A stretch of DNA of 64,000 nucleotides from Candidatus Bathyarchaeota archaeon BA2 (GCA_001399795.1 LIHK01000023.1:6916-70915), one strand, 5' to 3'; numbered from the stretch's first letter, positions 6,453 to 53,440 are shown. Notes: generated by a model not told the origin, from the letters alone. A program made the numbers and translations.

Positions 6453-7040
6453 TTAGGGTTTAATTTTGGTTCCAAGGATTTCAAGAAATTTCTTCATCCA
6501 TTCTGGGTGACCGGGCCATGCCGCTGCCGTAACGAGATTTCCATCTACACATGCGCTTGTGAAAGTCTCATTCGGCTGGGCCCACTCAGCCTCTGCACTA
6601 ATGATGTCTGGCTTAACTGCGGGGTAAGCCATACACTTCTTTCCTTTCAGCACGTTGGCCGCTGCAAGAACTTGAGGACCATGACAGATTGCGGCTATTG
6701 GTTTCTTTCTTTCAGCGAAATGCCTAACGATTTCAAGAACTCTTTCGTTCAGCCTAATATATTCTGGTGCCCTACCTCCTGGTATCACCAATCCATCGTA
6801 ATCTTCAGGATCAATTTTTTCAAAATCAATTGTGATCGCGAAGTTGTGACCTACCTTTTCGCTGTACGTCTGCTCACCTGTAAAGTCATGCACGGCTGTT
6901 TTGACGGAATCCCCAAGTTTCTTGCCAGGGCATGCCGCGTCGACCTCGTGCCCAACCATCTTCAGCATCTGATAAGGAACCATCGCCTCATAATCTTCGA
7001 CGAAATCCCCAACTAAGACCAAAATCTTCTTAGTTGACAC
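6453..7040 (-). CDS. DJ-1/PfpI family protein (intracellular protease/glyoxalase type)
   Basis: 195 aa. The nucleophile elbow AAICHGPQVL is followed by a conserved His region. Confidence 0.85.
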   Translation of the reverse strand: MSTKKILVLVGDFVEDYEAMVPYQMLKMVGHEVDAACPGKKLGDSVKTAVHDFTGEQTYSEKVGHNFAITIDFEKIDPEDYDGLVIPGGRAPEYIRLNERVLEIVRHFAERKKPIAAICHGPQVLAAANVLKGKKCMAYPAVKPDIISAEAEWAQPNETFTSACVDGNLVTAAAWPGHPEWMKKFLEILGTKIKP

Positions 7041-7446: not shown

Positions 7447-8130
7447 CTATTTTGTAAACTTCGTCTTTACTTGGTGACGATGTTCCAACTCCTCGAAGAT
7501 TCCTCTGAGCTTAAAGCCTTTCTGAGCGAAAAGCACTAGAACGTGGAAGAGTATGTCTGCGGCTTCATGTACAATCTCTTTAGGACGGTTATCTTTTGTT
7601 GCAAGAATGAGTTCAACCGTTTCCTCATCTATCTTCTGAAGAACAGCGTCTTCTCCCTTCGCAGTTAACTTGGAAACATAAGATTTCTCAGTAGGATTTC
7701 TGATTCTATCCATTATAACCTCGAAGATTCTTTCAACAATCTTCGCGTCAACCGCACGTTTCTCTTCGGCAATTACTGGCTTGTAAAAGCACGTTTCTTG
7801 GCCGGTGTGGCAAACGGCTCCAATCTGTTGAACCTTAAAGAGAATTGCATCATTGTCGCAGTCTATAATCGCGTTCTGCAGCAGAGAGTGGTGCCCAGAC
7901 TCCTCGCCCTTAAGCCATATCCTCCCGCGGCTTCGACTCCAATAGTGCATTTTACCGCTTTTCAAAGTCAACCGTAGGGCTTCCTCATTCATGAAGGCTT
8001 GCATCAAAACCTTGTCATTTGAAGCGTCTTGAACGACCACTGGAACAAGCCCATCAGCCTTTTCAAAGTCCACTTTCTTGACGAAATCTTCAACTTCTGT
8101 TTCACTTAACTGCAAGACCAAGTTTTCCAC
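7447..8130 (-). CDS. hisIE: bifunctional phosphoribosyl-AMP cyclohydrolase / phosphoribosyl-ATP pyrophosphatase
   Basis: The HisI core (YWSRSRGRIWLKGEESGH...CDNDAILFKV...CHTG) is fused to a HisE helical C-terminus (EAADILFHVLVL). Confidence 0.9.
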   Translation of the reverse strand: MENLVLQLSETEVEDFVKKVDFEKADGLVPVVVQDASNDKVLMQAFMNEEALRLTLKSGKMHYWSRSRGRIWLKGEESGHHSLLQNAIIDCDNDAILFKVQQIGAVCHTGQETCFYKPVIAEEKRAVDAKIVERIFEVIMDRIRNPTEKSYVSKLTAKGEDAVLQKIDEETVELILATKDNRPKEIVHEAADILFHVLVLFAQKGFKLRGIFEELEHRHQVKTKFTK

Positions 8131-8138
8131 CTCCCTGA

Positions 8139-8948
8139 CTAGACGAGACGTACAGGCACTCCTCTTTGGGCAAGATACTCCTTAACCTCCATAACCGAGC
8201 ATTGGGACCGGTGGAAGATGGAGGCAGCTAGGGCAGCGTCAGCTTTGCCAGCAGTTAAAACCTCGTAAATGTGCTCAAGGTTTCCAGCGCCTCCGCTCGC
8301 AATTACCGGCAAATTTGTTGCTTCGCTTATGGATTTTGTCAATGGAATGTCGTAGCCATCCTGAGTTCCGTCATAGTCCATGCTGGTTGGCAGAAGTTCT
8401 CCGGCGCCCAGTTCTTTCACGGCCTTAGCCCAAGATATGGCGTCCATTCCGGTGGGTACTCTTCCCCCCTCAACGTAGACTTCAAACCAACACTTCCCCT
8501 CGGCAGTATCCACAACCGTCTTGTCTGGAACGGCTTTTTCCACGTAAACCCTCTTAGCGTCGATGGCAACCACGATGCATTGGCTGCCAAAAATTTCAGC
8601 CGCCTTCTTTACGAGTTCGGGTTCCCTCACAGCCGCGGTGTTTACGGAAACTTTGTCTGCGCCAGCTGAAAGCACATTTTTGATGTCAGCGATACTTCTG
8701 ATGCCTCCGCCCACGGTGAAGGGAATAGACACCACATCTGCGGTTCTTTTCACAACATCCAGCAGGGTGCCCCTTTTCTCGTAGGAGGCTGTTATGTCGA
8801 GGAAAACCAGCTCATCTGCTCCTTGCTCCTCGTAAATCGCTGCAAGCTTTGCTGGGTCTCCTTCAATTTTCAAATTTACGAACTGCACGCCCTTGACAAC
8901 TTTTCCATCCTTGACGTCTAGACAGGGAATTATTCTTTTAGCCAACAC
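8139..8948 (-). CDS. hisF: imidazole glycerol phosphate synthase, cyclase subunit
   Basis: [20 protein letters not shown]...VFLDI...GGGI...ASGGAG is a full-length HisF barrel. Confidence 0.95.
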
Positions 8949-9660
8949 TTTTCACAACCTCTATAGCCTGTTCCAAAGTGAACTTTCCCTCATATAGGGC
9001 GGTGCCAACTATCACTCCATCAACACCTGTCCCCGCCAACTTAACTAAATCGTTCAAATTGGCTACGCCGCCCGAAGCAATAACTGGAACGCTAACGGTT
9101 TCCACAAGCTTCCTAATTTTTTCAACCTGCGGTCCTTTCAAAGTTCCGTCCACGCTTGTGGAGGTAAAGATTATAGTTCCAACTTTCATTTCTTCAAAGG
9201 AACGCGCGAGGTCTAAATAGTCTATTGCTGACTTATCCTTCCAACCGTGAAAAGTTACCTTGCCGTTTCTCTCGTCTATGGCTACGGCGACTCGCGGCGA
9301 ACCGTAACGACGAATAGCCTCTTGAATCAATGCAGGATTTTGAACGGCAACCGTTCCGAAAATTACTCGATAGGCGCCAAACTTCAGCAGTGTTTCCGCC
9401 TTCCCTAAAGTTCTGATTCCTCCGCCAATCTGCACATTCACGCGAAGTTCACTCAAGATTTTTTCTATTTCCTCCAAATTTTGCCCAGAACCTATGGCGG
9501 CGTCAAGGTCGATTAAATGGATGAGTTCTGCCCCTTGAACCTCTAATCGTTTAGCTGCTTCCAGAGGGTTGTCAAAATAGACTTTTGACCTCGTTGGGTC
9601 TCCTTGAACGAGGCGGACGCATTTTCCCCCCATTATGTCAACGGCTGGAATGACAAGCAT
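8938..9660 (-). CDS. hisA: ProFAR isomerase
   Basis: [21 protein letters not shown]...IGGGIR...ASGGV. The ATG at 9660 follows the hisB stop by 1 nt. The longer form starting at 9681 is less likely. Confidence 0.9.
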
Positions 9661-9661
9661 T

Positions 9662-10240
9662 TTAGAGCACACCCTTTGCACTTGGAATTTCGGACATAGC
9701 CCTTGATTCCAGCGTCACAGCCTCCCGTAGGGCAAGGGCAAAAGCCTTCACCGCAGCCTCGATCTTGTGGTGATCGTTGGTGCCGTAAAGAACCGCCAAG
9801 TGCAGGTTTGTCTTTGAAGCTTGGGCTAAGGAGTTGAAGAAGTGTTCAATGTCTTCTGTTTTTAAGTCTTCAATTTGAGGCTGGCTGAGTTTAAGATCTA
9901 GACTGGCGTAGGCTCTTCCACCGAGGTCCACCGCGGCTCTTGCAAGGGAGTCATCCATGGGCACGTAGGCTGAGCCAAACCTTCTGATGCCCTTCTTTTC
10001 TGCTATAGCTTTTTGCAGTGCTTCTCCCAGGGTTAGGGCAACGTCTTCGCACACGTGATGCTTCAACTCTCCTTTAGCTTTAACTGTTATGTTGAAGAGA
10101 GAGTGTTTCGCCAAGGTTATGAGAAGGTGGTCTAAAAACTTGATGCCGGTTTCTGCCTTTCCTTCTCCTTCCCCGTCGATGTTTAGCTTTACGGTTATGT
10201 CGACTTCGGTTGTTTTCCTTTCAACTTTTGCTTTTCTCAT
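9662..10240 (-). CDS. hisB: imidazoleglycerol-phosphate dehydratase
   Basis: 192 aa with the FLDHLL and HHKIEA metal-binding motifs. This is the monofunctional form with no fused phosphatase domain. Confidence 0.9.
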   Translation of the reverse strand: MRKAKVERKTTEVDITVKLNIDGEGEGKAETGIKFLDHLLITLAKHSLFNITVKAKGELKHHVCEDVALTLGEALQKAIAEKKGIRRFGSAYVPMDDSLARAAVDLGGRAYASLDLKLSQPQIEDLKTEDIEHFFNSLAQASKTNLHLAVLYGTNDHHKIEAAVKAFALALREAVTLESRAMSEIPSAKGVL

Positions 10241-11445
10241 TCAACTTTTCCTCCTAGACTAGCGTAAAGGTTTGGAATGTCGTTCACGTCTGTCATAACA
10301 GCGTCAGCACCGTGCTTTACGTATTGGGAAAAAAGTTGGTCTGGATATTGAGATGAACATAAAACGCCGAAAAACAGTATGTTAGACAAGCCTTGCAAAC
10401 GAGCATTTTCAATCAACAACATGTCTGCAATACCGTCCCCAACATAAACCACTTTTCCAGCAAGTTTCTCCACCATTTTAATGAAAAAAGTTGGGTTCGG
10501 CTTGCCAAGTTGCACGCTTTCACATGCCCCAAAAGGAATCTCCTCAGATGCAAATATGTCTTCTTGGAAAATAAGCCCATTTTCGTCAAAGTATTCCTTT
10601 AAATTGTTCTTTTCTAGGAGATAGATTCCTTGGTCTCTAGGTTTTTCCGAATATATCGCAAACTTCCCAAATCTTAAACGAAGCGCGTCAAGTGTCTTTT
10701 CTGTAGGAATAAAACTTTCTTTTTCAATAAAACTTTCGTCAAACTTGAAGATGGATGGAACGCCGTAAAATTTGCTGAAGAGCTTCGCACCTAAATACGT
10801 TTCCTCGAATAGACGCTTTAGTAGGTCTGGCTTCTCAAGATTGTATGGAACCAGTTTTCTGATAAGGGTTAATTGTTCGCCTCCAGCCTCTGGGAGGATA
10901 GGCTTTAGAGCAACTTCGAGAGAACTTTGATTTTCCAGCCTGACGCGTGTTAACAACGATTCTATGCCTACGGCGCTATCATTTTTCGTGTCGACGAGTT
11001 CGGTTGCGTTTAGTCCATAGCGTCCAAGAAAGTCGCCGATTTCTCTTAAAGTTTGGAGGAAACTGCCCGCCTCCGAGAACTGAATGTCGCTGAATCGTTT
11101 CGTGAAGTTTTGGAGGGTGCGTCTTTTTTGAAGTTTTCTCATTAGGAGGGCTAGGTAGTATGCGATGAGAGCGTACGTGAGGTTCCAATCGTTGTTGTAT
11201 AGTCCTGTGTCCTTAAAACTCTGAATATCTCCTAGGGTGACGAGTTTTCCCCTTTCCCCTTCAAGGCCAAGAATTTCGAGGAAATAGTAGTCCACAACCC
11301 TTCTTATGGTTTGGCGATACGATTGCGAAGTTTGAACCAGAACGCCGTCAAAGTCGAAGATGATTTTTTTGGTGTCGCTAAGGGCTTTCGCAGAGTCTTT
11401 CTTAAAGTATATTTTCCTCTCCTCGTCTAGGCATTGATAAGACAT
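10237..11445 (-). CDS. HAD-superfamily hydrolase with a large cap insertion; candidate histidinol-phosphate phosphatase
   Basis: Motif I is IIFDFDGVLV, the motif III Lys lies in LGKPNP and motif IV is YVGDGIADM. Its stop overlaps the hisB start by 4 nt and its start codon directly abuts the hisC stop codon (no gap), so it is embedded between hisC and hisB. Confidence 0.75.
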   Translation of the reverse strand: MSYQCLDEERKIYFKKDSAKALSDTKKIIFDFDGVLVQTSQSYRQTIRRVVDYYFLEILGLEGERGKLVTLGDIQSFKDTGLYNNDWNLTYALIAYYLALLMRKLQKRRTLQNFTKRFSDIQFSEAGSFLQTLREIGDFLGRYGLNATELVDTKNDSAVGIESLLTRVRLENQSSLEVALKPILPEAGGEQLTLIRKLVPYNLEKPDLLKRLFEETYLGAKLFSKFYGVPSIFKFDESFIEKESFIPTEKTLDALRLRFGKFAIYSEKPRDQGIYLLEKNNLKEYFDENGLIFQEDIFASEEIPFGACESVQLGKPNPTFFIKMVEKLAGKVVYVGDGIADMLLIENARLQGLSNILFFGVLCSSQYPDQLFSQYVKHGADAVMTDVNDIPNLYASLGGKVE

Positions 11446-12579
11446 TCACTGTTCCTCCAAGGCATCTTTCAAGGCTGAAACGAAGGTTTCGTTCATGCTG
11501 CGTGTTCCAACAGTTACGCGTATACAGTTCTCTAAAAGCGGCAGATTACTTCTATCCTTCACTAAGACGTCCCTGCTTTCCAGTTTTTCCTTAACGGTTG
11601 AGGAGGAAAGGTTATCCTTGGTTATCTTGAAGAGGATGAAGTTTGCGTCTGAGGGGTACGGGGTTACGCCATCAGTTTTGGCTAAAGCGTCTCTTAACCA
11701 CTCGCGTTCTTTTATAATGTATTTGATTCGCTGCTGGAAGTAGTTCCAGTTCTGCAAGGCAAGAGCGATGAGTCGTTGAGTCACAATGTTTATTTCAAAT
11801 GGGTTGGTAACTCGCTTAACGTACTCTGCAATTGACTTGTTTGAGACAAGAAAACCAGCGCGAATTCCAGCTAAACCAAAGGACTTTGAAAAACTTCTTA
11901 AGACAACGAGATTTTCAAACTTCCTTGTCCAGTCTATAACCGTGTATTTTGCGAAGTCAACGTAGGCTTCATCCACAACAACGACGCCTTTAAACTCCCG
12001 CAAGATTTTTTCTAGGTCTTCTTTTTTGAACTGGTTGCCAGTTGGATTGTTCGGAGAACAAATAATGAACAGAGAGATTTGTTCATCGCATTTTTCAAGC
12101 ATCCCATCGACATCCAACTCAAAATTTGGTCTAAGCAGAACCGTAACCTTTTTGCCCCCGTACAACTGCGTGAAGTAAGCATACAGGGGAAAAGTCGGCT
12201 CAACCACCAAGACTTTTGACTCCTTCTTCACGAAAACCTTCATAAGCGAATCCAAAACTCCGTCTACACCGTTTCCAACAAAGATTTCAGATTCGCTGAA
12301 GCCAAAAAACTCTGAGATGGCTTTTACGGCCATGGCACCGTAAAGTGGAGGATATAAACGGACATCAACGTCTTGACAAACTTCAAGGAGCAGTTTTCCC
12401 ACAATGTCACCAGCCACAGCGAAGTTCTCGTTTAGATCAAGTCTTGTGACTTTTTCATCAAGTTTCCGTGGAAGAATGCTCCCCGCTTCGTAAAGGGGGA
12501 GACCAAGAATTTCCTTGCGAACCAGTTCTTCAATTTTCACTTTTGTCACCCCTGATGGAAACTGATCTCGTGTGTCCAT
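11446..12579 (-). CDS. hisC: histidinol-phosphate aminotransferase
   Basis: 377 aa. PNNPTG and the PLP-lysine motif SFSKSFGLAGIRAGF are present. Confidence 0.9.
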   Translation of the reverse strand: MDTRDQFPSGVTKVKIEELVRKEILGLPLYEAGSILPRKLDEKVTRLDLNENFAVAGDIVGKLLLEVCQDVDVRLYPPLYGAMAVKAISEFFGFSESEIFVGNGVDGVLDSLMKVFVKKESKVLVVEPTFPLYAYFTQLYGGKKVTVLLRPNFELDVDGMLEKCDEQISLFIICSPNNPTGNQFKKEDLEKILREFKGVVVVDEAYVDFAKYTVIDWTRKFENLVVLRSFSKSFGLAGIRAGFLVSNKSIAEYVKRVTNPFEINIVTQRLIALALQNWNYFQQRIKYIIKEREWLRDALAKTDGVTPYPSDANFILFKITKDNLSSSTVKEKLESRDVLVKDRSNLPLLENCIRVTVGTRSMNETFVSALKDALEEQ

Positions 12580-13828
12580 TGAAACCTTCCAGTTTTGCGA
12601 GCGTGACGGTCATTCTCTCCAAGCTTAAGTAGCCCTTTTTGCTACACTCTAGGAAATTAATTGTTTTGACGAAATCCCTAGTCGAGAGACCTGAGTAGGA
12701 TTTTGCGTAGCCTCCTGTTGGAAGCACGTGATTTAATCCAGCTGAGTAGTCGCCGAAGGCAACTGGCGAGTATTGGCCCAAGAAAACGGCTCCGGCGCTT
12801 TGAATCTTGTCGAAGACCTTGCGGGGAGTCCTTGTTAAAATTTGGAGGTGTTCCGGGGCTATCAGGTTGGCGTAGTCTACTGCTTCCTCAAGGTTTTTGA
12901 TGAGCACTATTAAGCCTCCTGTTTGCATGGAAGATTTTACAGTTTCTTTTCTGGAGAGTGATTCCCACTGCTTACGTACCTCTTTCTCAACCGCTAGTGC
13001 CAAATCCTTGGATGTGGTTAACAGAATCGCCCATGCCCGTGGGTCGTGTTCCGCTTGGGCGAGAAGATCTGCGGCGACGAAAGAGGCGTTGGCGGTTTCG
13101 TCTGCTATTATCAGGACTTCGCTTGGCCCCGCTGGAATGTCTATGGCCACGTCTTTGCTTACCTCCAGTTTTGCGGCTGTCACAAAAACGTTTCCCGGAC
13201 CTATAATCTTGTCTACTTTGGGCACGGTTTCTGTGCCGTAAGCCATAGCCGCTATCGCTTGTGCTCCCCCAACCCTGTATATTTCAGTTACGCCCGCAAT
13301 GTCAGCCGCCACCAAGAGGGCTGGGTTGGTGTACCCGTTTTTTCTCGGTGGAGAACAAACAATAATTTTCTTGATCCCTACAATCTTAGCTGGGATGGCG
13401 CACATGAGCACCGAAGACGGGTAAGAAGCTTCTCCTCTAGGAGTGTAAACGCCGACAGATGATAGTGGCCGGGTTACCTGTCCGACTGTTACTCCTTTTG
13501 TGGTCTCCAAAGACCAAGCATTTCTGATCTGCGATTCGTGGAAGCGAGTGATGTTTAACGCGGCTTTTTTCAGGGCATTGATCTGTTCGGTTTCAAGCTT
13601 TTCATATGATTTTTCAATCTCCTTTTTGGTGACTTTCAGTTTTGACTTGGTAAGGCGTACGTTGTCGAATTTTTCGGTATAAAGTAAAAGGGCTTCGTCG
13701 CCGTTTTCCCTGACATCCGTTATTATTTTTTTAACCGACGAAGAAATTGAGGACAAATCCGTTTTTCCTCGGTTCAAAACCGCATCTAGCATTTTTTCTT
13801 TAAACTCTTGGCTGGTCAGAATCCTCAT
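12530..13828 (-). CDS. hisD: histidinol dehydrogenase
   Basis: 432 aa with GPGNVFVTAAK and AQAEHD motifs. Confidence 0.95.
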   Translation of the reverse strand: MRILTSQEFKEKMLDAVLNRGKTDLSSISSSVKKIITDVRENGDEALLLYTEKFDNVRLTKSKLKVTKKEIEKSYEKLETEQINALKKAALNITRFHESQIRNAWSLETTKGVTVGQVTRPLSSVGVYTPRGEASYPSSVLMCAIPAKIVGIKKIIVCSPPRKNGYTNPALLVAADIAGVTEIYRVGGAQAIAAMAYGTETVPKVDKIIGPGNVFVTAAKLEVSKDVAIDIPAGPSEVLIIADETANASFVAADLLAQAEHDPRAWAILLTTSKDLALAVEKEVRKQWESLSRKETVKSSMQTGGLIVLIKNLEEAVDYANLIAPEHLQILTRTPRKVFDKIQSAGAVFLGQYSPVAFGDYSAGLNHVLPTGGYAKSYSGLSTRDFVKTINFLECSKKGYLSLERMTVTLAKLEGFNGHTRSVSIRGDKSEN

Positions 13829-14467
13829 TTATTCCAGTCCTCCCTGCTTTAGTCTACTGAGAAACTCTTTAATTTCGCTTTCAAATGTTCTGAAGGAAAT
13901 TTTGTTGCATGCTAGTCTACACGTTGAATCAAGGATGGTGGCGATTACTTTGAGGTTGTTTTTCCGCAAGGTTTCGCCTGTCGACGAAACATCTACGATT
14001 ATTTCGGCCAAACCCAGCTTTGGGGCTAGTTCGGCTGTTCCGCGAACCCTTAGGATTTCCACCTGCTTTCCTAGGCCTTCAAAGTACCTTCTGCTAAGGT
14101 TTGGAAATTCTGTTGCGACTTTTGCCACTATTGAAATGTCTTTAACGGAGCGAATTGTTGAGTTTTCGGGAACCGCGACGACGAGTTGGCATTTTCCAAA
14201 ACCTAAATCCAGTAGTTCGTGTACGTCTGCTTCTCTTTCAAGGATGAGGTCGTGGCCAGTTATGCCTAGGTCCACGGCGCCGTACTGAACGTATAGGGGC
14301 ACGTCGAAGGCTCTGACGAAGATTGCCTCGAATCTTGGGTCAGAAGTTTTGGAAACGTAGACTCTTTCCTCTTCGAGTATGTTTATACCTGCACGTTGAA
14401 GCGCTTTGATTGAGGGTTGCCTGAGTCTGCCTTTGCTTGGTATTGCGATGCGAATCTTTCTTTTCAT
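13829..14467 (-). CDS. hisG: ATP phosphoribosyltransferase, short form
   Basis: 212 aa with no C-terminal regulatory domain. Motifs RIAIPSKGRL, DLGITG and DVSSTGETL are present. Confidence 0.9.
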   Translation of the reverse strand: MKRKIRIAIPSKGRLRQPSIKALQRAGINILEEERVYVSKTSDPRFEAIFVRAFDVPLYVQYGAVDLGITGHDLILEREADVHELLDLGFGKCQLVVAVPENSTIRSVKDISIVAKVATEFPNLSRRYFEGLGKQVEILRVRGTAELAPKLGLAEIIVDVSSTGETLRKNNLKVIATILDSTCRLACNKISFRTFESEIKEFLSRLKQGGLE

Positions 14468-15744
14468 GAAGATGAGCCTCCTAGGTTTTGAAGAAAAGTT
14501 TCAATCGTTACGTTCTTCTTTACGTTCGACTTGGGGTCATATACGATCACAGGCTTTTCAATGGTTGAATCCACGAAAATCACGTAATCTATTCCAGCAA
14601 GCTCCGCATATTTCAAAACTTTCTTCTCGTCGCTTTTTGTCACGTCTAAGAGTGCCACAACCCCGGCGTTATGAAAAGCGTTAACAGCTTTTACCGCGGC
14701 ACTTCTGAATTTAGACGCTACCAGAATCCTGATTTTTTCCCTTTTTTGCGGTTGAAAACCTTGAGCTGTCAGAGCTTGCAAGCACTTTTCAATCTCCAAG
14801 GCGAAGCCTATTGCCGGAATTTTAACTTTTCCAAACTTTTCAATAAAGTCGTCGTATCGGCCTCCTCCTCCAAGGGGTAAACCGAAATTTGGAACAGAAG
14901 CCTCGAAAACGATTCCTGTGTAGTATTCAATTTTTCTTGTAAGCGAGAAGTCGAAGAAGACAAGGTTTTCGATGCCGTAGTCAGTTAGGACATCCTTGAC
15001 ATCCAAGAGTTTTCTTAGATGATCTTCTGTCTTTCCGTACTTTGATGAACCAAGCGAAACGGATGAAACTTCGTCTAGTCGTCTACAGGAGGAAAGTTTT
15101 AGGAAGATTTCTCTTAGTTTTGGCGGAATTTTGTTTTGGTCCATGAATTTTTCTAGACGTGCTTCGTCTCTGTATCCTAGAAGATTTTGAAGTTTGGCTC
15201 TCTTTTCTTCGTCTAAACCTGTTGCTTTCAACAGGTCTTTTAGGAGGCTGGCGTGTCCGACATCAACTCGCACTTCCTTTAAGCCGATTTTTTTTAGAGA
15301 TGAAATTAGAAGGGCTAGTATTTCTCCGTCGGCTTCTGGGGTGTTGCAGCCTATTAGTTCAACTCCAGCCTGCCAGAATTCCCTTCCCCTTTCAATGTAG
15401 GATTGGCTGTATCTGAAAACGTTGCATATGTAGAATAGTCGAATTGGTTCTGGGGTGGAGGGCATCCTAGTTGTTATGATTCTGGCAACTGGCGCTGTCA
15501 TTTCTGGTCTTAGGGCCACAATTTTTCCGTCGAAATCTTGAAATTTGAACATGCTGTCAACTAGTTCTGATCCTACGCCTGTGGACAATGCTTCAACGAA
15601 TTCGATGGTGGGGGAACGGATTTCCTGATAGCCCCAGAGTTTAAATTTTTCTCTTAACCCCTCTTCGATGTAGCGGTAGTACTCAACTTCTAATGTAAGG
15701 TAGTCTCTTGTTCCTTTCGGTGTGTGTAGTTTGGTGAACGTCAT
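14464..15744 (-). CDS. histidyl-tRNA synthetase paralogue, probably the HisZ regulatory subunit (alternatively HisRS)
   Basis: PKGTRDYL is at the N-terminus. The motif-2 region is degenerate (FRYSQSYIERGREFWQAGVELIG). RKIEYYTG replaces RGLDYY, GGGGRYDDF is present, and GFALEIEK replaces the usual ER. An anticodon-binding-like C-terminus is retained. Its stop overlaps the hisG start by 4 nt. Confidence 0.8.
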   Translation of the reverse strand: MTFTKLHTPKGTRDYLTLEVEYYRYIEEGLREKFKLWGYQEIRSPTIEFVEALSTGVGSELVDSMFKFQDFDGKIVALRPEMTAPVARIITTRMPSTPEPIRLFYICNVFRYSQSYIERGREFWQAGVELIGCNTPEADGEILALLISSLKKIGLKEVRVDVGHASLLKDLLKATGLDEEKRAKLQNLLGYRDEARLEKFMDQNKIPPKLREIFLKLSSCRRLDEVSSVSLGSSKYGKTEDHLRKLLDVKDVLTDYGIENLVFFDFSLTRKIEYYTGIVFEASVPNFGLPLGGGGRYDDFIEKFGKVKIPAIGFALEIEKCLQALTAQGFQPQKREKIRILVASKFRSAAVKAVNAFHNAGVVALLDVTKSDEKKVLKYAELAGIDYVIFVDSTIEKPVIVYDPKSNVKKNVTIETFLQNLGGSSS

Positions 15745-17677: not shown

Positions 17678-19852
17678 TTATCGTTCGTGAGGTATTATTT
17701 TAAACAATGGTACGTTGGTCATAAGGGCTTTCATCAAGCTGTCTCTCAATTCATCACTATTACGTGGAAGTTCTTCTCTGGGAAGATAAATTCGTGAAAC
17801 CGATCCTCCGAACATAAAAGAGTGTATTTGACTTTCTGATCTTAATTGTTCTTCCCAGGAGGTATCAACAATAGGCAAGATATTAATGTACTCTTGTGGT
17901 GGCTGCGCTGACCTAAAGAATTTGTAATATGCTCCTGATCGGGCCGGCGTCTGAGACAGGAATGTTGGTATGCCATGCATTTGCGAAAGGTTATCCAACA
18001 TGGTTTTCAATTCCTCAAGAAAGGCAACGATTTTTCCAACAACATTTCTCTTTGCCTCCACTGTGGCTTTTGATCCCTGGAAAAAATCAGCCAGCCCAAC
18101 AAGTCCAATGTGCAAGCTGGAATGTTCCACATCAAAGTATTTGTGGTCAGGATCAGGCGGGGTAGCTTGGCCTGTGATCTGTAACAACGGATCCTTCATC
18201 TTAAGTCTTGACTTAAGTTCGGTTCTTTTCTTTAGGTCAAAATAAACAAGATTTTTGATCAGCTCTTCAACATGTGAAAGTATTCCTTTAAAGTTTTCTT
18301 TGTCAGATACGTTTACTTTTTTTCTTATCTCGGGGAGATTCAAAGAAGCAAAAGTCATTATGCCTTTGCGCTGGTCATCCTCCGTTCCGTCAGAGGTGAT
18401 TCTTTGAATTTCGCAAGAATATGATACATGAGAACCTGAAACCTTATTCATCGTGCTATCCATATTCACAAAGTATATAGGAATGTGTCTCAGATCAGAT
18501 ACTTTCAAAATTGACAAAATTGTTTCAAGTGTTTTGGAGGATATTTTCTTATGGTCATTCAAGGAATTAACAGAGACTTTCAGAAACACTCTTGGATATA
18601 TCGGGGCATAAGTATTTTCTTCCTTTTTCTTACACATCATTTCGAGCAAAACATCAGCAGTGTCCCTCGCACATTCCCAATAATCACGGTATCGGCTTTC
18701 TTTCTCCTCGCCTTCCATGATTATATTAGAATTTTCTATGGGGCTGTTTTCATACTCTAATGTGATGCTTGAAAACACAGGATCCATCGGTCTGGCCACG
18801 TACAATCGCCAAATTTCCGAGATAAACGCCTCAATATACTGTCTCAACCGATGCTCGTATTGGTTACCTGTTGCGGCTTCCTTCATCTTCTTGACAAACG
18901 GAGCCATTAATACATTAAAATGGTCAATGTTCTGTGATCCCCCAACTTCAGACCGACACATAGCTAGTACAGCGCAAACACATGCAAGAGCAGAATCTAG
19001 ATGGCGTGCTGGACGAGAAGAGTGGAATTGCGTTTTTACTCCATACTGAAAGAACCAACGCATGTCGTGGTTTATGGTTAGTGGTTGAAAGACGTTAGAC
19101 AACCCATGGAAATACATGATAGATCCACGGTCTGAGCTAATGCGAAGGTCATCGGGTAGTCGTCTCAAGTTAATGGTACAGAGGATCCGCTTGCCAGGTG
19201 ATTGAAGATGAATTCCGTGATAGCTGGGTGTCTTCAGGGAGTTCTCCAAGTGTTTCCAAGACCATCCTATATCAGAGTACTTGAATGCCATGTTTTCAAA
19301 GCGCTCTCTGTTATACCTATCTTTTTCATGGTCCGCCATTTCTTGAAGCGCCTCAACTACTAGTGCTCTTATGGTACCTTTCCATATTTTCTCCATGCGA
19401 ACGTAGCCCAGACCGTTGGCATAATCTTCGACTCTTCGAGCTACAATATCAGCTTCCTTGACTTTCATGTTGAGTTCATGTAAAAGAGATTCGATGATTT
19501 GGGTGCGCCCTTTACTTCCCCAATGTTCAGTTGAGGTTGCGAAACGAACACTGGGAGGCTTCTCCCTTGACAGTGGCAAAAACCTTTTTTTAATTCGCCA
19601 TTTTTTTGGTCTTTGATCATCCGTTTCCAAAATTCCAGCCTTTGCAAGCTTGTCAAGATAGCGATACAGAGTCTTGGTACTTATTTTGATCCCTTGTTTT
19701 TTGAGCGCAATATTAATGTCGTTAAACGTGGCACTGACCTTTGCATCAACTTCTCTGAGAATCCTTACTGTTGCGTTAGAATTGGACCCTAATGCGGCGA
19801 TCTGTTCTCTTAAAATGTCTAAAGATGGATCCAACATCATTAACACCTTCAA
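17678..19852 (-). CDS. winged-helix DNA-binding domain fused to a class III (NrdD-like) ribonucleotide reductase core that lacks the glycyl-radical domain
   Basis: The N-terminal wHTH reads ISTKTLYRYLDKLAKAGILE...KKWRI. NrdD-type blocks follow: RPARHLDSALACVCAVLAMCRSEVGGSQNIDHFNVLMAPFV, GIMTFASLNLPEI, LSQTPARSG and FGGSVSRIYL. The protein ends before any CxxC Zn-ribbon or RVCGY motif. Confidence 0.7.
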   Translation of the reverse strand: MKVLMMLDPSLDILREQIAALGSNSNATVRILREVDAKVSATFNDINIALKKQGIKISTKTLYRYLDKLAKAGILETDDQRPKKWRIKKRFLPLSREKPPSVRFATSTEHWGSKGRTQIIESLLHELNMKVKEADIVARRVEDYANGLGYVRMEKIWKGTIRALVVEALQEMADHEKDRYNRERFENMAFKYSDIGWSWKHLENSLKTPSYHGIHLQSPGKRILCTINLRRLPDDLRISSDRGSIMYFHGLSNVFQPLTINHDMRWFFQYGVKTQFHSSRPARHLDSALACVCAVLAMCRSEVGGSQNIDHFNVLMAPFVKKMKEAATGNQYEHRLRQYIEAFISEIWRLYVARPMDPVFSSITLEYENSPIENSNIIMEGEEKESRYRDYWECARDTADVLLEMMCKKKEENTYAPIYPRVFLKVSVNSLNDHKKISSKTLETILSILKVSDLRHIPIYFVNMDSTMNKVSGSHVSYSCEIQRITSDGTEDDQRKGIMTFASLNLPEIRKKVNVSDKENFKGILSHVEELIKNLVYFDLKKRTELKSRLKMKDPLLQITGQATPPDPDHKYFDVEHSSLHIGLVGLADFFQGSKATVEAKRNVVGKIVAFLEELKTMLDNLSQMHGIPTFLSQTPARSGAYYKFFRSAQPPQEYINILPIVDTSWEEQLRSESQIHSFMFGGSVSRIYLPREELPRNSDELRDSLMKALMTNVPLFKIIPHER

Positions 19853-20424: not shown

Positions 20425-21147
20425 TTGGAAATCCATGACACCCTTGTTCGATACGCGTTAGTCTTGGCGACGGACACGTTCGATGGAGACAGACCTTCAA
20501 GAGCTTTTATGGATTATTACAATAAGGCTGAAAGTAGAATGGAGGGGATCAGGCAAACCAATTGGAAGCTGAAAGAAGGTGAAATAGCCCCTCCTGAACT
20601 CCTTCTCAAGGACTTCATCGTAAACGGCGTTAAAGTCCAGAAGTTAATCGATCTCATTCATCAGGCTAAGCGATCTGTACCTTCATACTTACAACCGTAC
20701 CGCTTTACACAACATGGAGACGAGTATCCGGGCAACCTTTTCATGGTGATAATACCCGTCACCACTGATCCCTTCTCGCGTATAAGAAAGTGGAAATTGT
20801 CGGACTTTGACAATCTGACGACCTCTGCCATTAGAGGTATTGAGATATACGGAGAAGAGGGGAAAATTAACGAAATCAACTATAACTATAAGTCGGTCGT
20901 CAGAGAGGATCTTAAAGAGGCCACAGAAAGGGCACTCAACGAACTAAAAAAGTGGGCCAGTCTTCATGGTGATAAACACTTTGAGGTTCGGTTTTACTAC
21001 TTTCTAGGCTTAGTCCAGATATGTGTTGCTGCTAAAATTAACGACCCTACCCTCTGCAAAATTCTCCTAGCTGAAGGGAGCAAGAATCTACATTATTTCG
21101 TCAATGAATCCGAAAAAGGAAAGAATAAGCGAGGTGTTGAGGGTTGA
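20425..21147 (+). CDS. hypothetical protein (frame open from 20335 but without a canonical start there)
   Basis: 240-aa ORF. The upstream in-frame sequence PPSLLILVTPRYGKSAQRFLHERKLSEEEV looks coding. The stop overlaps the next gene's start. Confidence 0.55.
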   Translation: MEIHDTLVRYALVLATDTFDGDRPSRAFMDYYNKAESRMEGIRQTNWKLKEGEIAPPELLLKDFIVNGVKVQKLIDLIHQAKRSVPSYLQPYRFTQHGDEYPGNLFMVIIPVTTDPFSRIRKWKLSDFDNLTTSAIRGIEIYGEEGKINEINYNYKSVVREDLKEATERALNELKKWASLHGDKHFEVRFYYFLGLVQICVAAKINDPTLCKILLAEGSKNLHYFVNESEKGKNKRGVEG

Positions 21148-21566
21148 AAGTTTACTATAAGCGATTAGTCATTCCCACAACGAGCCGGCTGGATGAAGTG
21201 GACATTACTGACCACACGCAACATGAAGTGCAAAAAAGTGAGGTGCAAAACGGTATGGCTTTCATTTTTGTTCCACACAACGGAGCCGCTCTAACCATCA
21301 ATGAGCATCAAAAAGAAATATGGAACGACAGCTGGAGATGCTATCAAACTTGGGCCCCTCTCGATGGTAACTATGAACATCATAGGACATGGGGTGGAAT
21401 GGAAAAGAACGGCATGGCTCACGTTCTTTCGAATTTCATGGCGAAATCCATTCCTCTCTTGATCCTTAACGGCAGGCTTAGGCTAGGGACATGGCAGCAG
21501 CTGCTGTTGTGGGAGATGGATGGACCAAGAGAACGTCAGGTGGACGTCATGGTGATGGGGGAATGA
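21144..21566 (+). CDS. YjbQ/UPF0047 family protein (secondary thiamine-phosphate synthase family), paralogue 1
   Basis: LDEVDITD...NGMAFIFVPHNGAALTINE...GTWQQLLLWEMDGPRERQV matches the family layout. The TTG start overlaps the upstream stop. Confidence 0.8.
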   Translation: MKVYYKRLVIPTTSRLDEVDITDHTQHEVQKSEVQNGMAFIFVPHNGAALTINEHQKEIWNDSWRCYQTWAPLDGNYEHHRTWGGMEKNGMAHVLSNFMAKSIPLLILNGRLRLGTWQQLLLWEMDGPRERQVDVMVMGE

Positions 21567-22735
21567 GAGCCGTCATCTTTGATCTCGATGGAACTCTGTA
21601 TAAAAGTGCCAAATTGAGCTCAGACATCTGGAGAAATCTTGTTAAGGTGGTTGCGGAAGAACTTGGAATATCGGAAGAGAAGGCCTCTGAATTCATCATC
21701 AAGGGAAAGAAGCGGCACCTCACCGTAACCAGAACTGTAGAGGCTATGGGGATCTCAAGGATTAGATTGTATGAGAGGTTAGCTAAATCTGTTAACCCTT
21801 CAGAATATTTAAATTTAGACCCTCGGCTCCAGTCCCTTGTCGATGAGCTGCACGACAAGGGATATAAGGTTGCCGTGGCAACGGACTCCGGTAGATCCTT
21901 AGCTGTTAAGATCCTCGACGCGATAGGGATTTTAAATAAGCTAGACTCAGTAGCCACCAGTTCCGAGGCTGCACCGAAGCCGGAGCCAAACATCTACCTC
22001 TATGCCCTAAGTAAGTTAAATATTTGGCCTAACCAGGCTGTTTATGTAGGAGACCGCTTGGAAGAGGCTAGAGGAGCTAAACAAGCCGGTCTCTCTACGC
22101 TCTTACTCTCCAAACTTCCAGTTGATAGTCCTTGGGTTGATTTCACCATCAGGGACTTAAACCAGCTACCTAAAATCTTGGAACATCACACTCCGTTCAT
22201 CATGACCATATCTAGCGACGGATTTCTGGACTCATCTGGTTTTAAAGGTATAACTCGACTCGAAACCAGACTAGAGGACGTATACCAAGAATTTCAAGAT
22301 CGGGACTATGTAGAGAAGTTATTACGAAAGGGACAAAACCCCATTATTAGAGTGAGGGAAAGGATTAATTTAAAGGGAGAGGGCCTGCTCAAGCTTTCAG
22401 TTCAGGCGATTTCATCGGGGAAGATCGGGAAAGAATATTTCTTAACTCCTCTACACGTCCATGACAAAAGCGAATTGATGGTGGGGATATCGGGAAAGGG
22501 GTTGGTTCTGCTACAATGTGGAGAATTAGCTGACTTGAAGCGCCTTGAAAGAGGAAAGTTGGTATACATTCCTCCTCGTTGGGCACACAGATGCATTAAC
22601 ATAGGCAACGAGAGGTTCGTCTACATAGCTATTTACGATTCTGAGATAAGGAAAAGCTACGGCATGAAACCCATCTACACAGCGATAGAGGGCGAAGATG
22701 GTAAGCCCAAGCTGATCCATGTGGAAGATGAGTAG
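21563..22735 (+). CDS. fusion of a HAD phosphatase domain and a cupin-type phosphoglucose-isomerase-like domain
   Basis: MRAVIFDLDGTLY (HAD motif I) and YVGDRLEEARGA lie in the N-terminal half. LHVHDKSE...VYIPPRWAHRCINIGNERFVYIAIY (archaeal cupin PGI signature) lies in the C-terminal half. The start forms an ATGA overlap with the upstream stop. Confidence 0.75.
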   Translation: MRAVIFDLDGTLYKSAKLSSDIWRNLVKVVAEELGISEEKASEFIIKGKKRHLTVTRTVEAMGISRIRLYERLAKSVNPSEYLNLDPRLQSLVDELHDKGYKVAVATDSGRSLAVKILDAIGILNKLDSVATSSEAAPKPEPNIYLYALSKLNIWPNQAVYVGDRLEEARGAKQAGLSTLLLSKLPVDSPWVDFTIRDLNQLPKILEHHTPFIMTISSDGFLDSSGFKGITRLETRLEDVYQEFQDRDYVEKLLRKGQNPIIRVRERINLKGEGLLKLSVQAISSGKIGKEYFLTPLHVHDKSELMVGISGKGLVLLQCGELADLKRLERGKLVYIPPRWAHRCINIGNERFVYIAIYDSEIRKSYGMKPIYTAIEGEDGKPKLIHVEDE

Positions 22736-22736
22736 A

Positions 22737-23162
22737 ATGAAAATTTTTAATCTCTCCATACATAGTAGAAAGCAGAGAGAACTAATTGACATAACTGACT
22801 ATGTTGAATCGATTATCCGTGAGAGTCGGATTACAAACGGGCTAGTTATCATCACCACACTACACGTGACAGCTGGAATCCTGATTAACGAATACGAGGA
22901 TAAACTGAAATGGGACATTCTCAATAAACTCACTGCCTTGTGCGCATCTCGCTCATACCGTCACCACCGTTATCACTACGAAGATGGTAGGCCAGCGGTT
23001 AATGCTCCATCCCATCTGGCCGTTATCTTAGCCAGCCAGCCAAGTGTAGCCCTGTTGATAGAAAACGGGTCTTTGCTTTTATCTAGGAGGCAAAGGATCA
23101 TGCTCTTAGAAGCCGATGGGCCTAAAGAGAGAAGTCTCAAAGTCCGTGTGGTCGAAGAGTGA
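22737..23162 (+). CDS. YjbQ/UPF0047 family protein, paralogue 2
   Basis: MKIFNLSIHSRKQRELIDITD...NGLVIITTLHVTAGILINE...LLEADGPKERSL. The ATG lies 1 nt after the upstream stop. Confidence 0.8.
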   Translation: MKIFNLSIHSRKQRELIDITDYVESIIRESRITNGLVIITTLHVTAGILINEYEDKLKWDILNKLTALCASRSYRHHRYHYEDGRPAVNAPSHLAVILASQPSVALLIENGSLLLSRRQRIMLLEADGPKERSLKVRVVEE

Positions 23163-47580: not shown

Positions 47581-48300
47581 TTGAGGCTCTTGGTCAGTGT
47601 AATAGATAGAAAGGAGGCTATAGAAGCAATTGAAGGAGGAGCACACATAATCGATGTCAAAAATCCGAGAGAGGGGTCCTTGGGCGCAAACTTTCCGAGA
47701 ATCATTAGGCAAGTCAGAGAAATAGTGCCGAACGACGTTGAAGTAAGCGCGACGATCGGTGATTTGCCAAATCTGCCTGGAACAGCCTCTCTAGCTGCTT
47801 TAGGCGCGGCTTTTTCGGGAGCCAATTACGTTAAGGCCGGGCTTTACGGTGTGAAAACATCTATTGAAGCGGTAAGCTTAATGAGGGAGGTTTGCAGGGC
47901 TGTGAAAGATTATAATGTTGCCTTAAAGGTAATCGCTGCGGGTTATGCTGACTTTAAAAAAATCGGCTGCCTAAACCCTTTAAAGCTTCCCGAAATTGCG
48001 TCTATAGTTAAGGCTGATGGCGTAATGGTGGATGTCAAAATGAAAACTCTGGGAAAGTTATTTGACTTTCTAAGTGATTGTGAGCTGGGAGAGTTCATTG
48101 ACAGGTCACATAAATACGATTTAACGGTAGCCTTAGCCGGATCCTTAGATAAGGAGGATGTCCCAAAAGTGCACAGTCTTGGGGCAGATGTAATCGGGGT
48201 TAGGAGGGCTGTTTGCAGCGGAAAAAATCGATTGAAAGGTAGAATTCAAGGAAAAGCGGTAACAGAATTTATCAAGGCGATTAGCATCTGTGAAAGATAA
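47581..48300 (+). CDS. mfnB: (5-formylfuran-3-yl)methyl phosphate synthase-like protein (MfnB/DUF556)
   Basis: MRLLVSVIDRKEAIEAIEGGAHIIDVKNPREGSLGA is the family N-terminus. 239 aa. Confidence 0.8.
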   Translation: MRLLVSVIDRKEAIEAIEGGAHIIDVKNPREGSLGANFPRIIRQVREIVPNDVEVSATIGDLPNLPGTASLAALGAAFSGANYVKAGLYGVKTSIEAVSLMREVCRAVKDYNVALKVIAAGYADFKKIGCLNPLKLPEIASIVKADGVMVDVKMKTLGKLFDFLSDCELGEFIDRSHKYDLTVALAGSLDKEDVPKVHSLGADVIGVRRAVCSGKNRLKGRIQGKAVTEFIKAISICER

Positions 48301-48660
48301 TTAAACTACGATTTCTGTGCAAAGAGTTTTTCCATCCTTTAAAATCGCTTCAATTCTCTCAGGATGCTTACCATTCACAACGTAGCACTTTAGTCGTGTC
48401 CCTAAAAACATCTTAGGCAAGAATTTGTCAACGCTTGTCCTCTTGTTCCAGCTTAATAATTCGTTAGCCGATAACTTTTCTATCAATCCTGCCGAGCTTC
48501 TGCATGGTTATCTGGTCGATTCTGGCTATTACTCTGTAAACGTCGCATTGCCTTACGTCTTCTACTATCGGTTTAATTTCGGGTTGAGCCTGTTCCGGGT
48601 CCCCCATCACCGTTCCTCCCTGTGAAGTCGGATGGCTTGCTCCAGCAAATGCAGAGGTAG
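48301..48660 (-). pseudogene. diverged remnant of an amino-acid-kinase-family (MfnE-like) gene
   Basis: LSANELLSWNKRTSVDKFLPKMFLGTRLKCYVVNGKHPERIEAILKDGKTLCTEIVV parallels the C-terminus of the intact gene at 50418-51089. The upstream part is readable only in another frame. Confidence 0.5.
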
Positions 48661-49051
48661 GGCTCCCGCTCAGCCGAGGTTGAATACCTAATTAAGCTGG
48701 GCTTAGAACACGAAAAGGAAAAGGAGGTGAATACGCCAAAATTATGAGTGTTTTCGCTTGGTCTTTTGTCGGCGCCTTGGTCTATATTTTGGCGGTTGAC
48801 TGAAGCAGATGCCTCAAGAGAACTTCAGCGGCAGAAAGACTCTTGAAAACCAGGTAATAGCATTTCTTGTAACCCCAGAATACAAACGGTACTGACAATA
48901 ACCAAAACTTAGCTTATTATTTTTTCATAAAGCTTAAATACTAAATCCATTTTAATAAAATGTGACGGCGAAAAGATGCCAAGACAGAAATGATTTGGTG
49001 TCTTAGCCCGTAGAAAACAAATAAACAACATGTTATCCTACTATAACTCAC

Positions 49052-53397: not shown

Positions 53398-53440
53398 ACC
53401 TTTACCCTCATGACTTAATACTAAGCCTCGGAGGGATTTA

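What the first reader, a model, noticed from the sequence alone, without database searches (positions are those of the whole stretch)
10237..11445. Large-cap HAD hydrolase embedded between hisC and hisB: candidate for the missing histidinol-phosphate phosphatase
The his operon here encodes every step except the glutaminase hisH and the phosphatase step. HisB is monofunctional at 192 aa, and no PHP-type or IMPase-type gene is present. In the position where a phosphatase would be expected sits a 402-aa HAD protein with all catalytic motifs (DFDGVL, LGKPNP, GDGIADM). It has a very long insertion between motifs I and II, and its reading frame overlaps the hisB start by 4 nt. Known histidinol-phosphate phosphatases belong to the HisB-N HAD, PHP and IMPase families. 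A long-cap HAD of this type in an archaeal his operon would be a distinct solution.
Basis: partly seen in the sequence, partly recalled or inferred. Interest (0 to 1): 0.55.

Follow-up and report, generated by a model that had tools for sequence, protein, structure and literature searches.

The report
Archaeal histidinol-phosphate phosphatase (HisN) gene
The 402-residue HAD hydrolase between hisC and hisB very probably performs the "missing" phosphatase step of histidine synthesis, but it belongs to an enzyme family already shown to do this in the archaeon Nitrosopumilus in 2024, so it is a good annotation and not a discovery.

Summary
The window comes from Candidatus Bathyarchaeota archaeon BA2. 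A 402-aa HAD hydrolase (10237-11445, minus strand) has intact catalytic motifs and a helical cap of about 200 residues. It sits in a hisZ-G-D-C-HAD-B-A-F-IE cluster, its start abuts the hisC stop, and its stop overlaps the hisB start (ATGA). HisB is IGPD-only. No hisH, PHP or IMPase gene lies in the 64 kb.

The guess that it is the histidinol-phosphate phosphatase is well supported. The claim of novelty is not. Kinateder et al. 2024 (PMC10804674) showed in vitro that Nmar_1556 (nmHisN), the HAD gene between hisC and hisB of Nitrosopumilus maritimus, is a specific HolPase, and their network included Bathyarchaeota. The BA2 protein is a full-length homologue of Nitrosopumilaceae orthologues (hhalign probability 100%, E 1.8e-72). 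The hisC-HAD-hisB order recurs in Bathyarchaeia, Nitrososphaeria and one unnamed bacterial MAG; an Atribacterota contig has hisD-HAD-hisB.

The published fingerprint Y24-D25-K56-E64 maps to Y43-R44-K78-D86. Three positions fit, but the D25 position is Arg. That is the untested "YRKD" pattern the authors judged a likely HolPase. The BA2-type proteins form their own 45%-identity cluster.

Verdict: new member of a known kind, low interest.

The parts
10237..11445 (-). hisN-type HAD histidinol-phosphate phosphatase candidate, 402 aa
   Evidence: ORF. Pfam Hydrolase and HAD_2. Homology to Nitrosopumilaceae HisN orthologues. AF2 model with pLDDT 93.9.
11338..11355 (-). HAD motif I, DFDGVL. D31 is the nucleophile and D33 the general acid/base.
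   Evidence: D31, D33 and G34 are invariant in 139 family members. The catalytic roles are inferred from general HAD chemistry.
10711..11328 (-). Large all-helical cap, about residues 40-245, inserted just after motif I
   Evidence: The AF2 secondary structure has ten helices between residues 43 and 227 plus a short one at 239-242. In the alignment it is longer than the Nitrosopumilaceae cap.
11314..11319 (-). Y43-R44, equivalent to nmHisN specificity residues Y24-D25. The Asp is replaced by Arg.
   Evidence: Alignments. The numbering was checked on orthologues.
11188..11214 (-). K78...D86 (KDTGLYNND), equivalent to nmHisN K56 and E64
   Evidence: In A1 position 78 is always K or R, and D86 is more than 90% conserved.
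10648..10650 (-). HAD motif II, S266
   Evidence: It aligns with the T/S of the 'GIASGRP / VVTGRG' block and follows strand 262-265 of the model.
10492..10509 (-). HAD motif III, LGKPNP (K315)
   Evidence: K315 is invariant.
10423..10440 (-). HAD motif IV, GDGIAD (D337, D341), the Mg2+ ligands
   Evidence: G336 is invariant and D337 and D341 are at least 90% conserved.
11446..12579 (-). hisC, histidinol-phosphate aminotransferase, which makes the proposed substrate
   Evidence: Pfam Aminotran_1_2, E 5.5e-54. Its stop abuts the HAD start.
9662..10240 (-). hisB, monofunctional imidazoleglycerol-phosphate dehydratase, 192 aa
   Evidence: Pfam IGPD only. NF002111 scores above its cut-off. ATGA overlap with the HAD stop.
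12530..13828 (-). hisD, histidinol dehydrogenase, which uses the proposed product
   Evidence: ORF. It detects the HisD region in related loci by tblastn, and the equivalent gene in relatives carries Pfam Histidinol_dh.
13829..14467 (-). hisG, short form
   Evidence: Pfam HisG
14464..15744 (-). hisZ, regulatory subunit of ATP phosphoribosyltransferase
   Evidence: TIGR00443 scores 302.5 bits against a cut-off of 271.65. hisS is below its cut-off.
8938..9681 (-). hisA. It overlaps hisB by 20 nt, so the hisH position is empty.
8139..8948 (-). hisF
7447..8130 (-). hisIE
   Evidence: Pfam PRA-CH and PRA-PH

Best explanation
The gene encodes the L-histidinol-phosphate phosphatase (HisN, EC 3.1.3.15) of this Bathyarchaeon. 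It is a long-cap member of the archaeal HAD HolPase family typified by Nitrosopumilus maritimus nmHisN (Nmar_1556) and, more distantly, Thermococcus onnurineus toHisN. By analogy with HAD chemistry (inferred, not tested here), D31 attacks the phosphate of histidinol phosphate made by HisC and forms an aspartyl-phosphate intermediate. D33 acts as the general acid/base. S266 and K315 hold the phosphate, and D337 and D341 hold Mg2+. The helical cap closes over the site, and Y43, K78 and D86, with I47 and I74 behind them, recognise the histidinol moiety. The product, histidinol, goes to HisD. The gene is translationally coupled to hisC upstream and hisB downstream.
For: Homology:
- BLASTP against a Nitrosopumilaceae orthologue gives E 5e-22 over residues 28-393.
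- Profile-profile comparison gives probability 100% and E 1.8e-72 over 321 columns.
- Those orthologues carry the published fingerprint Y24, D25, I28, I52, K56 and E64 invariantly, at the published numbering. The family enzyme was shown in vitro to be a specific HolPase (PMC10804674).

Gene order:
- hisG-hisD-hisC-HAD-hisB-...-hisA-hisF-hisI recurs in Bathyarchaeia, Nitrosopumilaceae (most loci), Nitrososphaerales and an unnamed bacterial MAG. One Nitrososphaerales locus (L004) gave no hisC hit. An Atribacterota contig has hisD-HAD-hisB.
- It also holds for proteins with the same Y-R-K-D pattern: P0128, P0178, P0007 and P0044.
- It holds for a Y-Y-K-D variant in a complete genome.
- A short 237-aa toHisN-like form follows hisC at the end of a Thermoplasmata his operon.

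The protein itself:
- All four HAD motifs are intact and conserved.
- The AF2 model is confident (pLDDT 93.9, pTM 0.91) and shows one large helical cap.
- HisB lacks a phosphatase domain, and no other HolPase type lies in the window.
Against: - Position 44, the equivalent of nmHisN D25, is Arg. D25A lowered kcat/KM about 220-fold in nmHisN. No enzyme with the Y-R-K-D pattern has been assayed, and the authors called that assignment less reliable.
- Identity to the Nitrosopumilaceae orthologue of the characterised enzyme is only 24%.
- In my small network the BA2-type proteins form a separate cluster at 45% identity.
- The TIGR01548 score is 68 bits against a cut-off of 140.
- The rest of the BA2 genome was not searched for another HolPase.
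- The N. maritimus sequence itself was not available, so orthologues stood in for it.
Confidence: 0.85

Rival explanations
1. It is a HAD phosphatase whose specificity has shifted because of the D25-to-Arg change and the enlarged cap. It would act on another phosphorylated amine or sugar, or on both histidinol phosphate and phosphoserine, while staying in the his operon.
For: One of the four specificity residues differs, and that position varies (R, Y, H, P) even within the closest 45%-identity cluster. HAD phosphatases are often promiscuous. Phosphoserine and histidinol phosphate are chemically similar (PMC5764234).
Against: Placement between hisC and hisB with translational coupling is conserved across all fingerprint variants. 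Y43, K78 and D86 are conserved. nmHisN rejected nine other phosphoesters, including phosphoserine.
Confidence: 0.09
2. The real HolPase of BA2 is a canonical PHP, IMPase or other enzyme encoded elsewhere, and this HAD is an accessory or redundant phosphatase.
For: Only 64 kb of a metagenome-assembled genome was examined. Redundant HolPases exist in Pseudomonas aeruginosa (abstract of PMC12220765).
Against: No such gene lies in the window. The same HAD fills the same position in many lineages whose HisB is monofunctional. In Nitrosopumilus this gene is the HolPase.
Confidence: 0.05
3. It is a catalytically dead HAD-fold protein with a structural or regulatory role in the his operon.
For: None specific.
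Against: The nucleophile Asp, the acid/base Asp, the motif II Ser, the motif III Lys and both motif IV Asp residues are all present and conserved.
Confidence: 0.01

Closest known systems
nmHisN (Nmar_1556), the HAD histidinol-phosphate phosphatase of Nitrosopumilus maritimus (Kinateder et al. 2024, PMC10804674)
   Same: Same HAD subfamily, with full-length homology to its Nitrosopumilaceae orthologues (hhalign E 1.8e-72). Same position between hisC and hisB. A single large all-helical cap after motif I. Y24, K56, I28 and I52 are conserved as Y43, K78, I47 and I74. E64 is conservatively replaced by D86.
   Different: Only 24% identity to the orthologue. D25 is replaced by R44. It is 402 aa against about 306-330 aa in Nitrosopumilaceae, because of an N-terminal beta-hairpin extension, about 60-70 extra cap residues (ten or eleven helices against nine) and a longer loop before motif III. 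It falls in a separate cluster at 45% identity.
toHisN of Thermococcus onnurineus (Lee et al. 2008, as described in PMC10804674), and the solved relative 6IAH (240-aa 'Hydrolase')
   Same: HAD HolPase with a single helical cap. The E64 position is Asp, as here. 6IAH is the best PDB sequence match to the family profile (E 5.2e-31). I recall 6IAH as Tt82 of Thermococcus thioreducens; this was not verified here.
   Different: Much shorter (about 240 aa, seven cap helices). Its fingerprint is Y-D-R-D, against Y-R-K-D here.
The 'cluster II' (Euryarchaeota) and delta-proteobacterial homologues in Kinateder et al. 2024
   Same: The same Y-R-K-D residue pattern. They are predicted, not tested, HolPases.
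   Different: Different lineages. I did not measure sequence identity to them directly. Bacterial Y-R-K-D relatives found here are 330-360 aa.
1QYI, Staphylococcus aureus hypothetical protein Q8NW41 (structural genomics)
   Same: Best structural match (Foldseek E 5e-11, TM 0.62-0.65) and a full-length profile match (E 2e-30). It is a HAD with a very large helical cap.
   Different: It lacks the S-Y and FK..GGFNNDW fingerprint. The three related Bacillota loci with several kb of flank (L022, L023, L028) showed no neighbouring his genes. Its function is unknown.
HisB-N (E. coli-type HAD-IIIA), paHisN (serB-like HAD), and the PHP and IMPase HolPases
   Same: They catalyse the same reaction. HisB-N and paHisN share the HAD core.
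   Different: HisB-N and paHisN have unrelated caps, and the PHP and IMPase enzymes have different folds. HAD-IIIA scores 18 bits against a cut-off of 44.6. The protein has no PHP or IMPase domains.

Membership tests
nmHisN/toHisN-type HAD histidinol-phosphate phosphatases | HAD core with catalytic motifs I-IV | tested here: met
   D31/D33, S266, K315 and D337/D341 are present and conserved. Pfam Hydrolase, E 9e-11.
nmHisN/toHisN-type HAD histidinol-phosphate phosphatases | Full-length sequence homology to the characterised enzyme | tested here: met
   Tested against Nitrosopumilaceae orthologues that carry the published residues at the published numbering, not against Nmar_1556 itself. BLASTP E 5e-22 with 24% identity. 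hhalign probability 100%, E 1.8e-72.
nmHisN/toHisN-type HAD histidinol-phosphate phosphatases | One large all-helical cap inserted after motif I, with no second cap | tested here: met
   The AF2 model (pLDDT 93.9) has ten or eleven helices between residues 43 and 242. Only a disordered loop lies before motif III.
nmHisN/toHisN-type HAD histidinol-phosphate phosphatases | Gene lies within a his cluster, between hisC and hisB in Thaumarchaeota | tested here: met
   for the window. for relatives.
nmHisN/toHisN-type HAD histidinol-phosphate phosphatases | Fingerprint residues Y24, K56 (or R) and E64 (or D) | tested here: met
   Y43, K78 and D86. In 139 family members Y is present in 127, K or R in all 139, and D or E in 138.
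nmHisN/toHisN-type HAD histidinol-phosphate phosphatases | Fingerprint residue D25 | tested here: not met
   R44. Within the closest 45%-identity cluster this position is mostly R or Y, with a few H or P. The paper's cluster II and delta-proteobacterial groups also have R here and were judged likely, but less certain, HolPases.
nmHisN/toHisN-type HAD histidinol-phosphate phosphatases | Connected to nmHisN at 45% identity or more (the paper's SSN cluster I) | tested here: not met
   In a network of the sequences fetched here, the BA2 protein sits in a separate 125-member cluster and the Nitrosopumilaceae form their own. The sample is limited and is not the paper's data set.
nmHisN/toHisN-type HAD histidinol-phosphate phosphatases | Mg2+-dependent, specific hydrolysis of L-histidinol phosphate | not testable with these tools
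   Needs an enzyme assay or complementation.
TIGR01548 (HAD-SF-IA-hyp1) | Score above the curated cut-off of 140.2 bits | tested here: not met
   68.4 bits. It is the best NCBIfam hit but below the cut-off.
HisB-N (HAD-IIIA) HolPase | HAD-IIIA domain, usually fused to IGPD | tested here: not met
   TIGR01662 scores 18.1 bits against a cut-off of 44.6 for the HAD. HisB aligns only to the IGPD half (167-355) of the bifunctional model.
PHP-type and IMPase-type HolPases | PHP or inositol-monophosphatase domain | tested here: not met
   Neither domain is found in this protein or in any scanned window ORF.

The most novel reading that the evidence does not exclude
The Bathyarchaeial long-cap subfamily may recognise its substrate differently from nmHisN. 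It has the pattern Y-x-K-D, with R, Y, H or P at the D25 position. It also has ten or eleven cap helices and an N-terminal beta-hairpin. Its specificity might be broadened or shifted, for example to cover both the histidinol-phosphate and phosphoserine phosphatase steps. The covariation between positions 44 and 78 (R goes with K, D or N goes with R) would then mark a rewired binding pocket.
Probability: 0.1. Interest if true: 0.4.

Novelty: new member of a known kind. Interest (0 to 1): 0.2.

Why it matters
The histidinol-phosphate phosphatase step is still the most frequent apparent gap in automated reconstructions of amino-acid biosynthesis. It is missing in 20% of prototrophs in GapMind 2026 (bioRxiv 10.1101/2024.10.14.618325). 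The BA2 protein and its many Bathyarchaeial relatives are labelled only as generic HAD hydrolases or phosphoglycolate-phosphatase-like proteins, and they fall below the TIGR01548 cut-off. Recognising them as HisN closes that gap for this lineage. Conserved operon context across the Y-R-K-D and Y-Y-K-D variants is independent support for the untested prediction that R-type homologues are HolPases. It does not reveal a new kind of enzyme.

Tried and rejected
- I looked for the Nmar_1556 sequence itself. The paper's supplements are not held. None of the proteins fetched up to that point (288 sequences) carried the fingerprint at the published positions. I used orthologues whose numbering and invariant residues match the paper.\n- I scanned the window ORFs for a HisH-type GATase, PHP or IMPase gene and found none. 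The DJ-1/PfpI gene at 6453-7040 is a PfpI-family protein (TIGR01382 above its cut-off) and not HisH (20.7 bits against 105.4). I rejected it as the glutaminase.\n- I considered the second HAD at 21491-22735 as a HolPase candidate and rejected it. It is an ordinary HAD-IA with a short cap fused to a cupin, and it lies outside any his context.\n- I looked for a BA2 HisH among relatives of the HisH of a close relative.

Full report
**1. What is in the sequence**

The window comes from Candidatus Bathyarchaeota archaeon BA2. The translated ORF is 100% identical to a deposited protein named 'haloacid dehalogenase-like hydrolase' from that organism.

A nine-gene histidine cluster lies on the minus strand:
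- hisZ 14464-15744 (TIGR00443 above its cut-off)
- short hisG 13829-14467
- hisD 12530-13828
- hisC 11446-12579
- the HAD gene 10237-11445
- hisB 9662-10240 (IGPD only, 192 aa)
- hisA 8938-9681
- hisF 8139-8948
- hisIE 7447-8130

The hisC stop is followed immediately by the HAD ATG. The HAD stop overlaps the hisB ATG as ATGA, with a GGAGG upstream. This arrangement indicates translational coupling. hisB and hisA overlap by 20 nt, so there is no room for hisH between them.

Pfam scans of nearly all other ORFs of 90 aa or more found no HisH-type GATase, PHP or IMPase gene in the 64 kb. Four ORFs were left out, including two long repeat-rich or membrane-like ones.

**2. What the protein is**

Pfam sees only generic HAD families. 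The best NCBIfam model is TIGR01548, at 68 bits against a cut-off of 140.

A search of 1.8 billion representative proteins found 734 relatives, mostly 330-410 aa. They share a strong signature: D-x-D-G-V-L-[IV]-D-x-x-x-S-Y ... F-[KR]-x-x-G-G-F-N-N-D-W-D.

AlphaFold2 with a 139-sequence alignment gave a confident model (pLDDT 93.9, pTM 0.91):
- a Rossmann-like HAD core
- an N-terminal beta-hairpin
- one very large helical cap, with ten helices between residues 43 and 227 plus a short one, inserted directly after motif I
- a disordered loop before motif III

The closest solved structures are 1QYI and 6IAH. 1QYI is a 384-aa Staphylococcus aureus hypothetical protein (Foldseek TM 0.62-0.65, profile E 2e-30). 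6IAH is a 240-aa 'Hydrolase' (profile E 5e-31).

**3. The literature already explains it**

Kinateder et al. 2024 (Protein Sci 33:e4899, PMC10804674) started from a 2009 note by Fondi et al. about an uncharacterised hydrolase gene between hisC and hisB in Thaumarchaeota. They purified Nmar_1556 of Nitrosopumilus maritimus. Their findings were:
- It is a specific Mg2+-dependent histidinol-phosphate phosphatase, with kcat/KM about 1.1e4 M-1 s-1 and no activity on nine other phosphoesters.
- They named it nmHisN and described a single cap of nine helices.
- An alanine scan defined a fingerprint of Y24, D25, K56 and E64, with I28 and I52 as accessory residues.
- They related it to toHisN of Thermococcus onnurineus (Lee et al. 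2008), which has seven cap helices and the fingerprint Y-D-R-D.
- In their sequence similarity network, the cluster holding nmHisN contained Thaumarchaeota and Bathyarchaeota.
- A Euryarchaeota cluster and two delta-proteobacterial clusters carry Arg at position 25. These were called likely HolPases with less certainty.

**4. Testing membership**

The N. maritimus sequence itself could not be obtained. The genome scan did return Nitrosopumilaceae loci. With a TTG start, the orthologue in L013 has motif I at D12. Across seven Nitrosopumilaceae orthologues, Y24, D25, I28, I52, K56 and E64 are invariant at exactly those numbers. These orthologues are therefore valid stand-ins.

The BA2 protein aligns to them over its whole length. 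BLASTP gives E 5e-22 at 24% identity. hhalign gives probability 100% and E 1.8e-72 over 321 columns.

The fingerprint maps as follows:

| nmHisN | BA2 protein |
|---|---|
| I20 | T39 |
| Y24 | Y43 |
| D25 | R44 |
| I28 | I47 |
| I52 | I74 |
| K56 | K78 |
| E64 | D86 |

Three of the four key residues fit; the E-to-D change is also seen in toHisN. The fourth is Arg, which gives the Y-R-K-D pattern of the paper's untested groups.

Compared with the Nitrosopumilaceae proteins (306-330 aa), the BA2 protein has:
- about 25 extra N-terminal residues
- about 60-70 extra cap residues
- about 12 extra residues before motif III

**5. Genomic context across the family**

I ran tblastn with the window's His proteins against the fetched loci.
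- hisG-hisD-hisC-HAD-hisB-(about 600 nt)-hisA-hisF-hisI is seen in Bathyarchaeia (L001, L002, L003, L005, L041), one Nitrososphaerales locus (L006) and several Nitrosopumilaceae loci.
- The other Nitrososphaerales locus (L004) has the same order but gave no hisC hit.
- An unnamed bacterial MAG (L018) shows the same order. There the HAD itself comes from the scan match to the Nitrosopumilales-like query, not from the window query.
- An Atribacterota contig (L017) has hisD-HAD-hisB.
- A Thermoplasmata locus (L044) has a 237-aa toHisN-like form directly after hisC at the end of its his operon.

The same context holds for relatives with the BA2-type fingerprint:
- P0128 (38% identity): hisD-C-HAD-B-H-A-F-IE
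- P0178 (a bacterial-type operon with long-form hisG): hisG-D-C-HAD-B
- P0007 (82% identity) and P0044 (69% identity)
- P0183, next to a hisC-like aminotransferase with hisD about 5 kb away

A Y-Y-K-D variant, P0109, occupies the same position in a complete Bathyarchaeota genome. The his-operon association therefore does not depend on the residue at position 44. This supports HolPase function for the R-type and Y-type proteins.

**6. Finer structure of the family**

In a 45%-identity network of the sequences fetched here, the BA2 protein belongs to a 125-member Bathyarchaeial cluster of 365-410 aa. This cluster is separate from the Nitrosopumilaceae (Y-D-K-E) cluster. It is also separate from a mixed cluster that contains other Bathyarchaeia (Y-D/N-R-D).

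Within the BA2 cluster, position 44 is mostly R (about 87 of 125) or Y (29), with a few H or P. Y43, K78 and D86 stay conserved.

Across 139 family members, position 44 covaries with position 78. R goes with K in all cases, and D or N goes with R in 85%. What this coupling means is unknown.

**7. Mechanism**

Shown here:
- homology to the nmHisN family
- intact catalytic motifs
- the cap architecture
- the operon position and coupling

Inferred from general HAD chemistry and from the nmHisN alanine scan:
- nucleophilic catalysis by D31 through an aspartyl-phosphate intermediate
- acid/base catalysis by D33
- phosphate and Mg2+ binding by S266, K315, D337 and D341
- recognition of the histidinol moiety by cap residues Y43, K78 and D86

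**8. Verdict**

The premise that no such HolPase class is known is out of date. This is a new, unassayed and somewhat divergent member of a family characterised in 2024.

The remaining uncertainty is the Arg at the D25 position and the lack of a whole-genome check for other HolPases. Interest is low (0.2). The practical value is better annotation of a step that is still the commonest gap in amino-acid pathway reconstruction.

Noticed in passing
window 8938-10240 (hisB/hisA junction); L054, L052, L055, L049: The hisH position of the operon is empty in BA2, where hisB and hisA overlap by 20 nt. Close relatives differ. P0007/L054 (82% identical HAD) and P0128/L052 have hisH between hisB and hisA. 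P0044/L055 and the complete genome CP070759.1 (L049) lack it there. No BA2-labelled HisH appeared among the best 120 relatives of the L054 HisH. Either hisH has moved elsewhere or these lineages use another ammonia source for HisF.
   Followed up: partly
window 21491-22735 (+), flanked by 21144-21566 and 22719-23162: This is a second HAD-IA phosphatase domain fused to a cupin-type glucose-6-phosphate-isomerase-like domain (414 aa). It lies between two UPF0047 genes. The fusion is unusual and its function is unknown.
   Followed up: partly
window 47581-54199: A cluster resembling methanogen cofactor biosynthesis. It holds a 4-HFC-P synthase (47581-48300), an amino-acid-kinase-like gene and a hydantoinase-like gene (50418-52171), an ATP-grasp gene (52168-53397) and a HisA/HisF-related TIGR00734-like gene (53441-54199). 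The TIGR00734 score is 170 bits, just under the cut-off of 180.
   Followed up: partly
window 6453-7040 (-): A DJ-1/PfpI family gene lies about 400 nt downstream of hisIE on the same strand. It gives weak class-I GATase hits but is clearly PfpI (TIGR01382 above its cut-off) and not HisH. It does not follow hisIE in the relatives examined.
   Followed up: yes
alignment A1, window residues 44 and 78 of the HAD (11314-11316 and 11212-11214): The two specificity positions covary across the family. Arg at 44 always goes with Lys at 78, and Asp or Asn at 44 goes with Arg at 78 in 85% of sequences. The Nitrosopumilaceae (D with K) are the exception.
   Followed up: partly
L005 3180-4250 and 7513-8565: One Bathyarchaeia genome carries two copies of the HAD. 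One is in the usual hisC-hisB position and the second follows hisI.
   Followed up: no
L022, L023, L028 (also L020, L042): Bacillota carry large-cap HAD relatives of this family, represented by the S. aureus structure 1QYI. The three loci with several kb of flank (L022, L023, L028) showed no neighbouring his genes; L020 is a short contig and L042 gave no hits at all. This looks like a sister group of unknown function.
   Followed up: no
window 17678-19852 (-): A 724-aa ORF whose C-terminal 500 residues match anaerobic ribonucleotide reductase (NRDD). It has a long N-terminal extension with no Pfam match.
   Followed up: no
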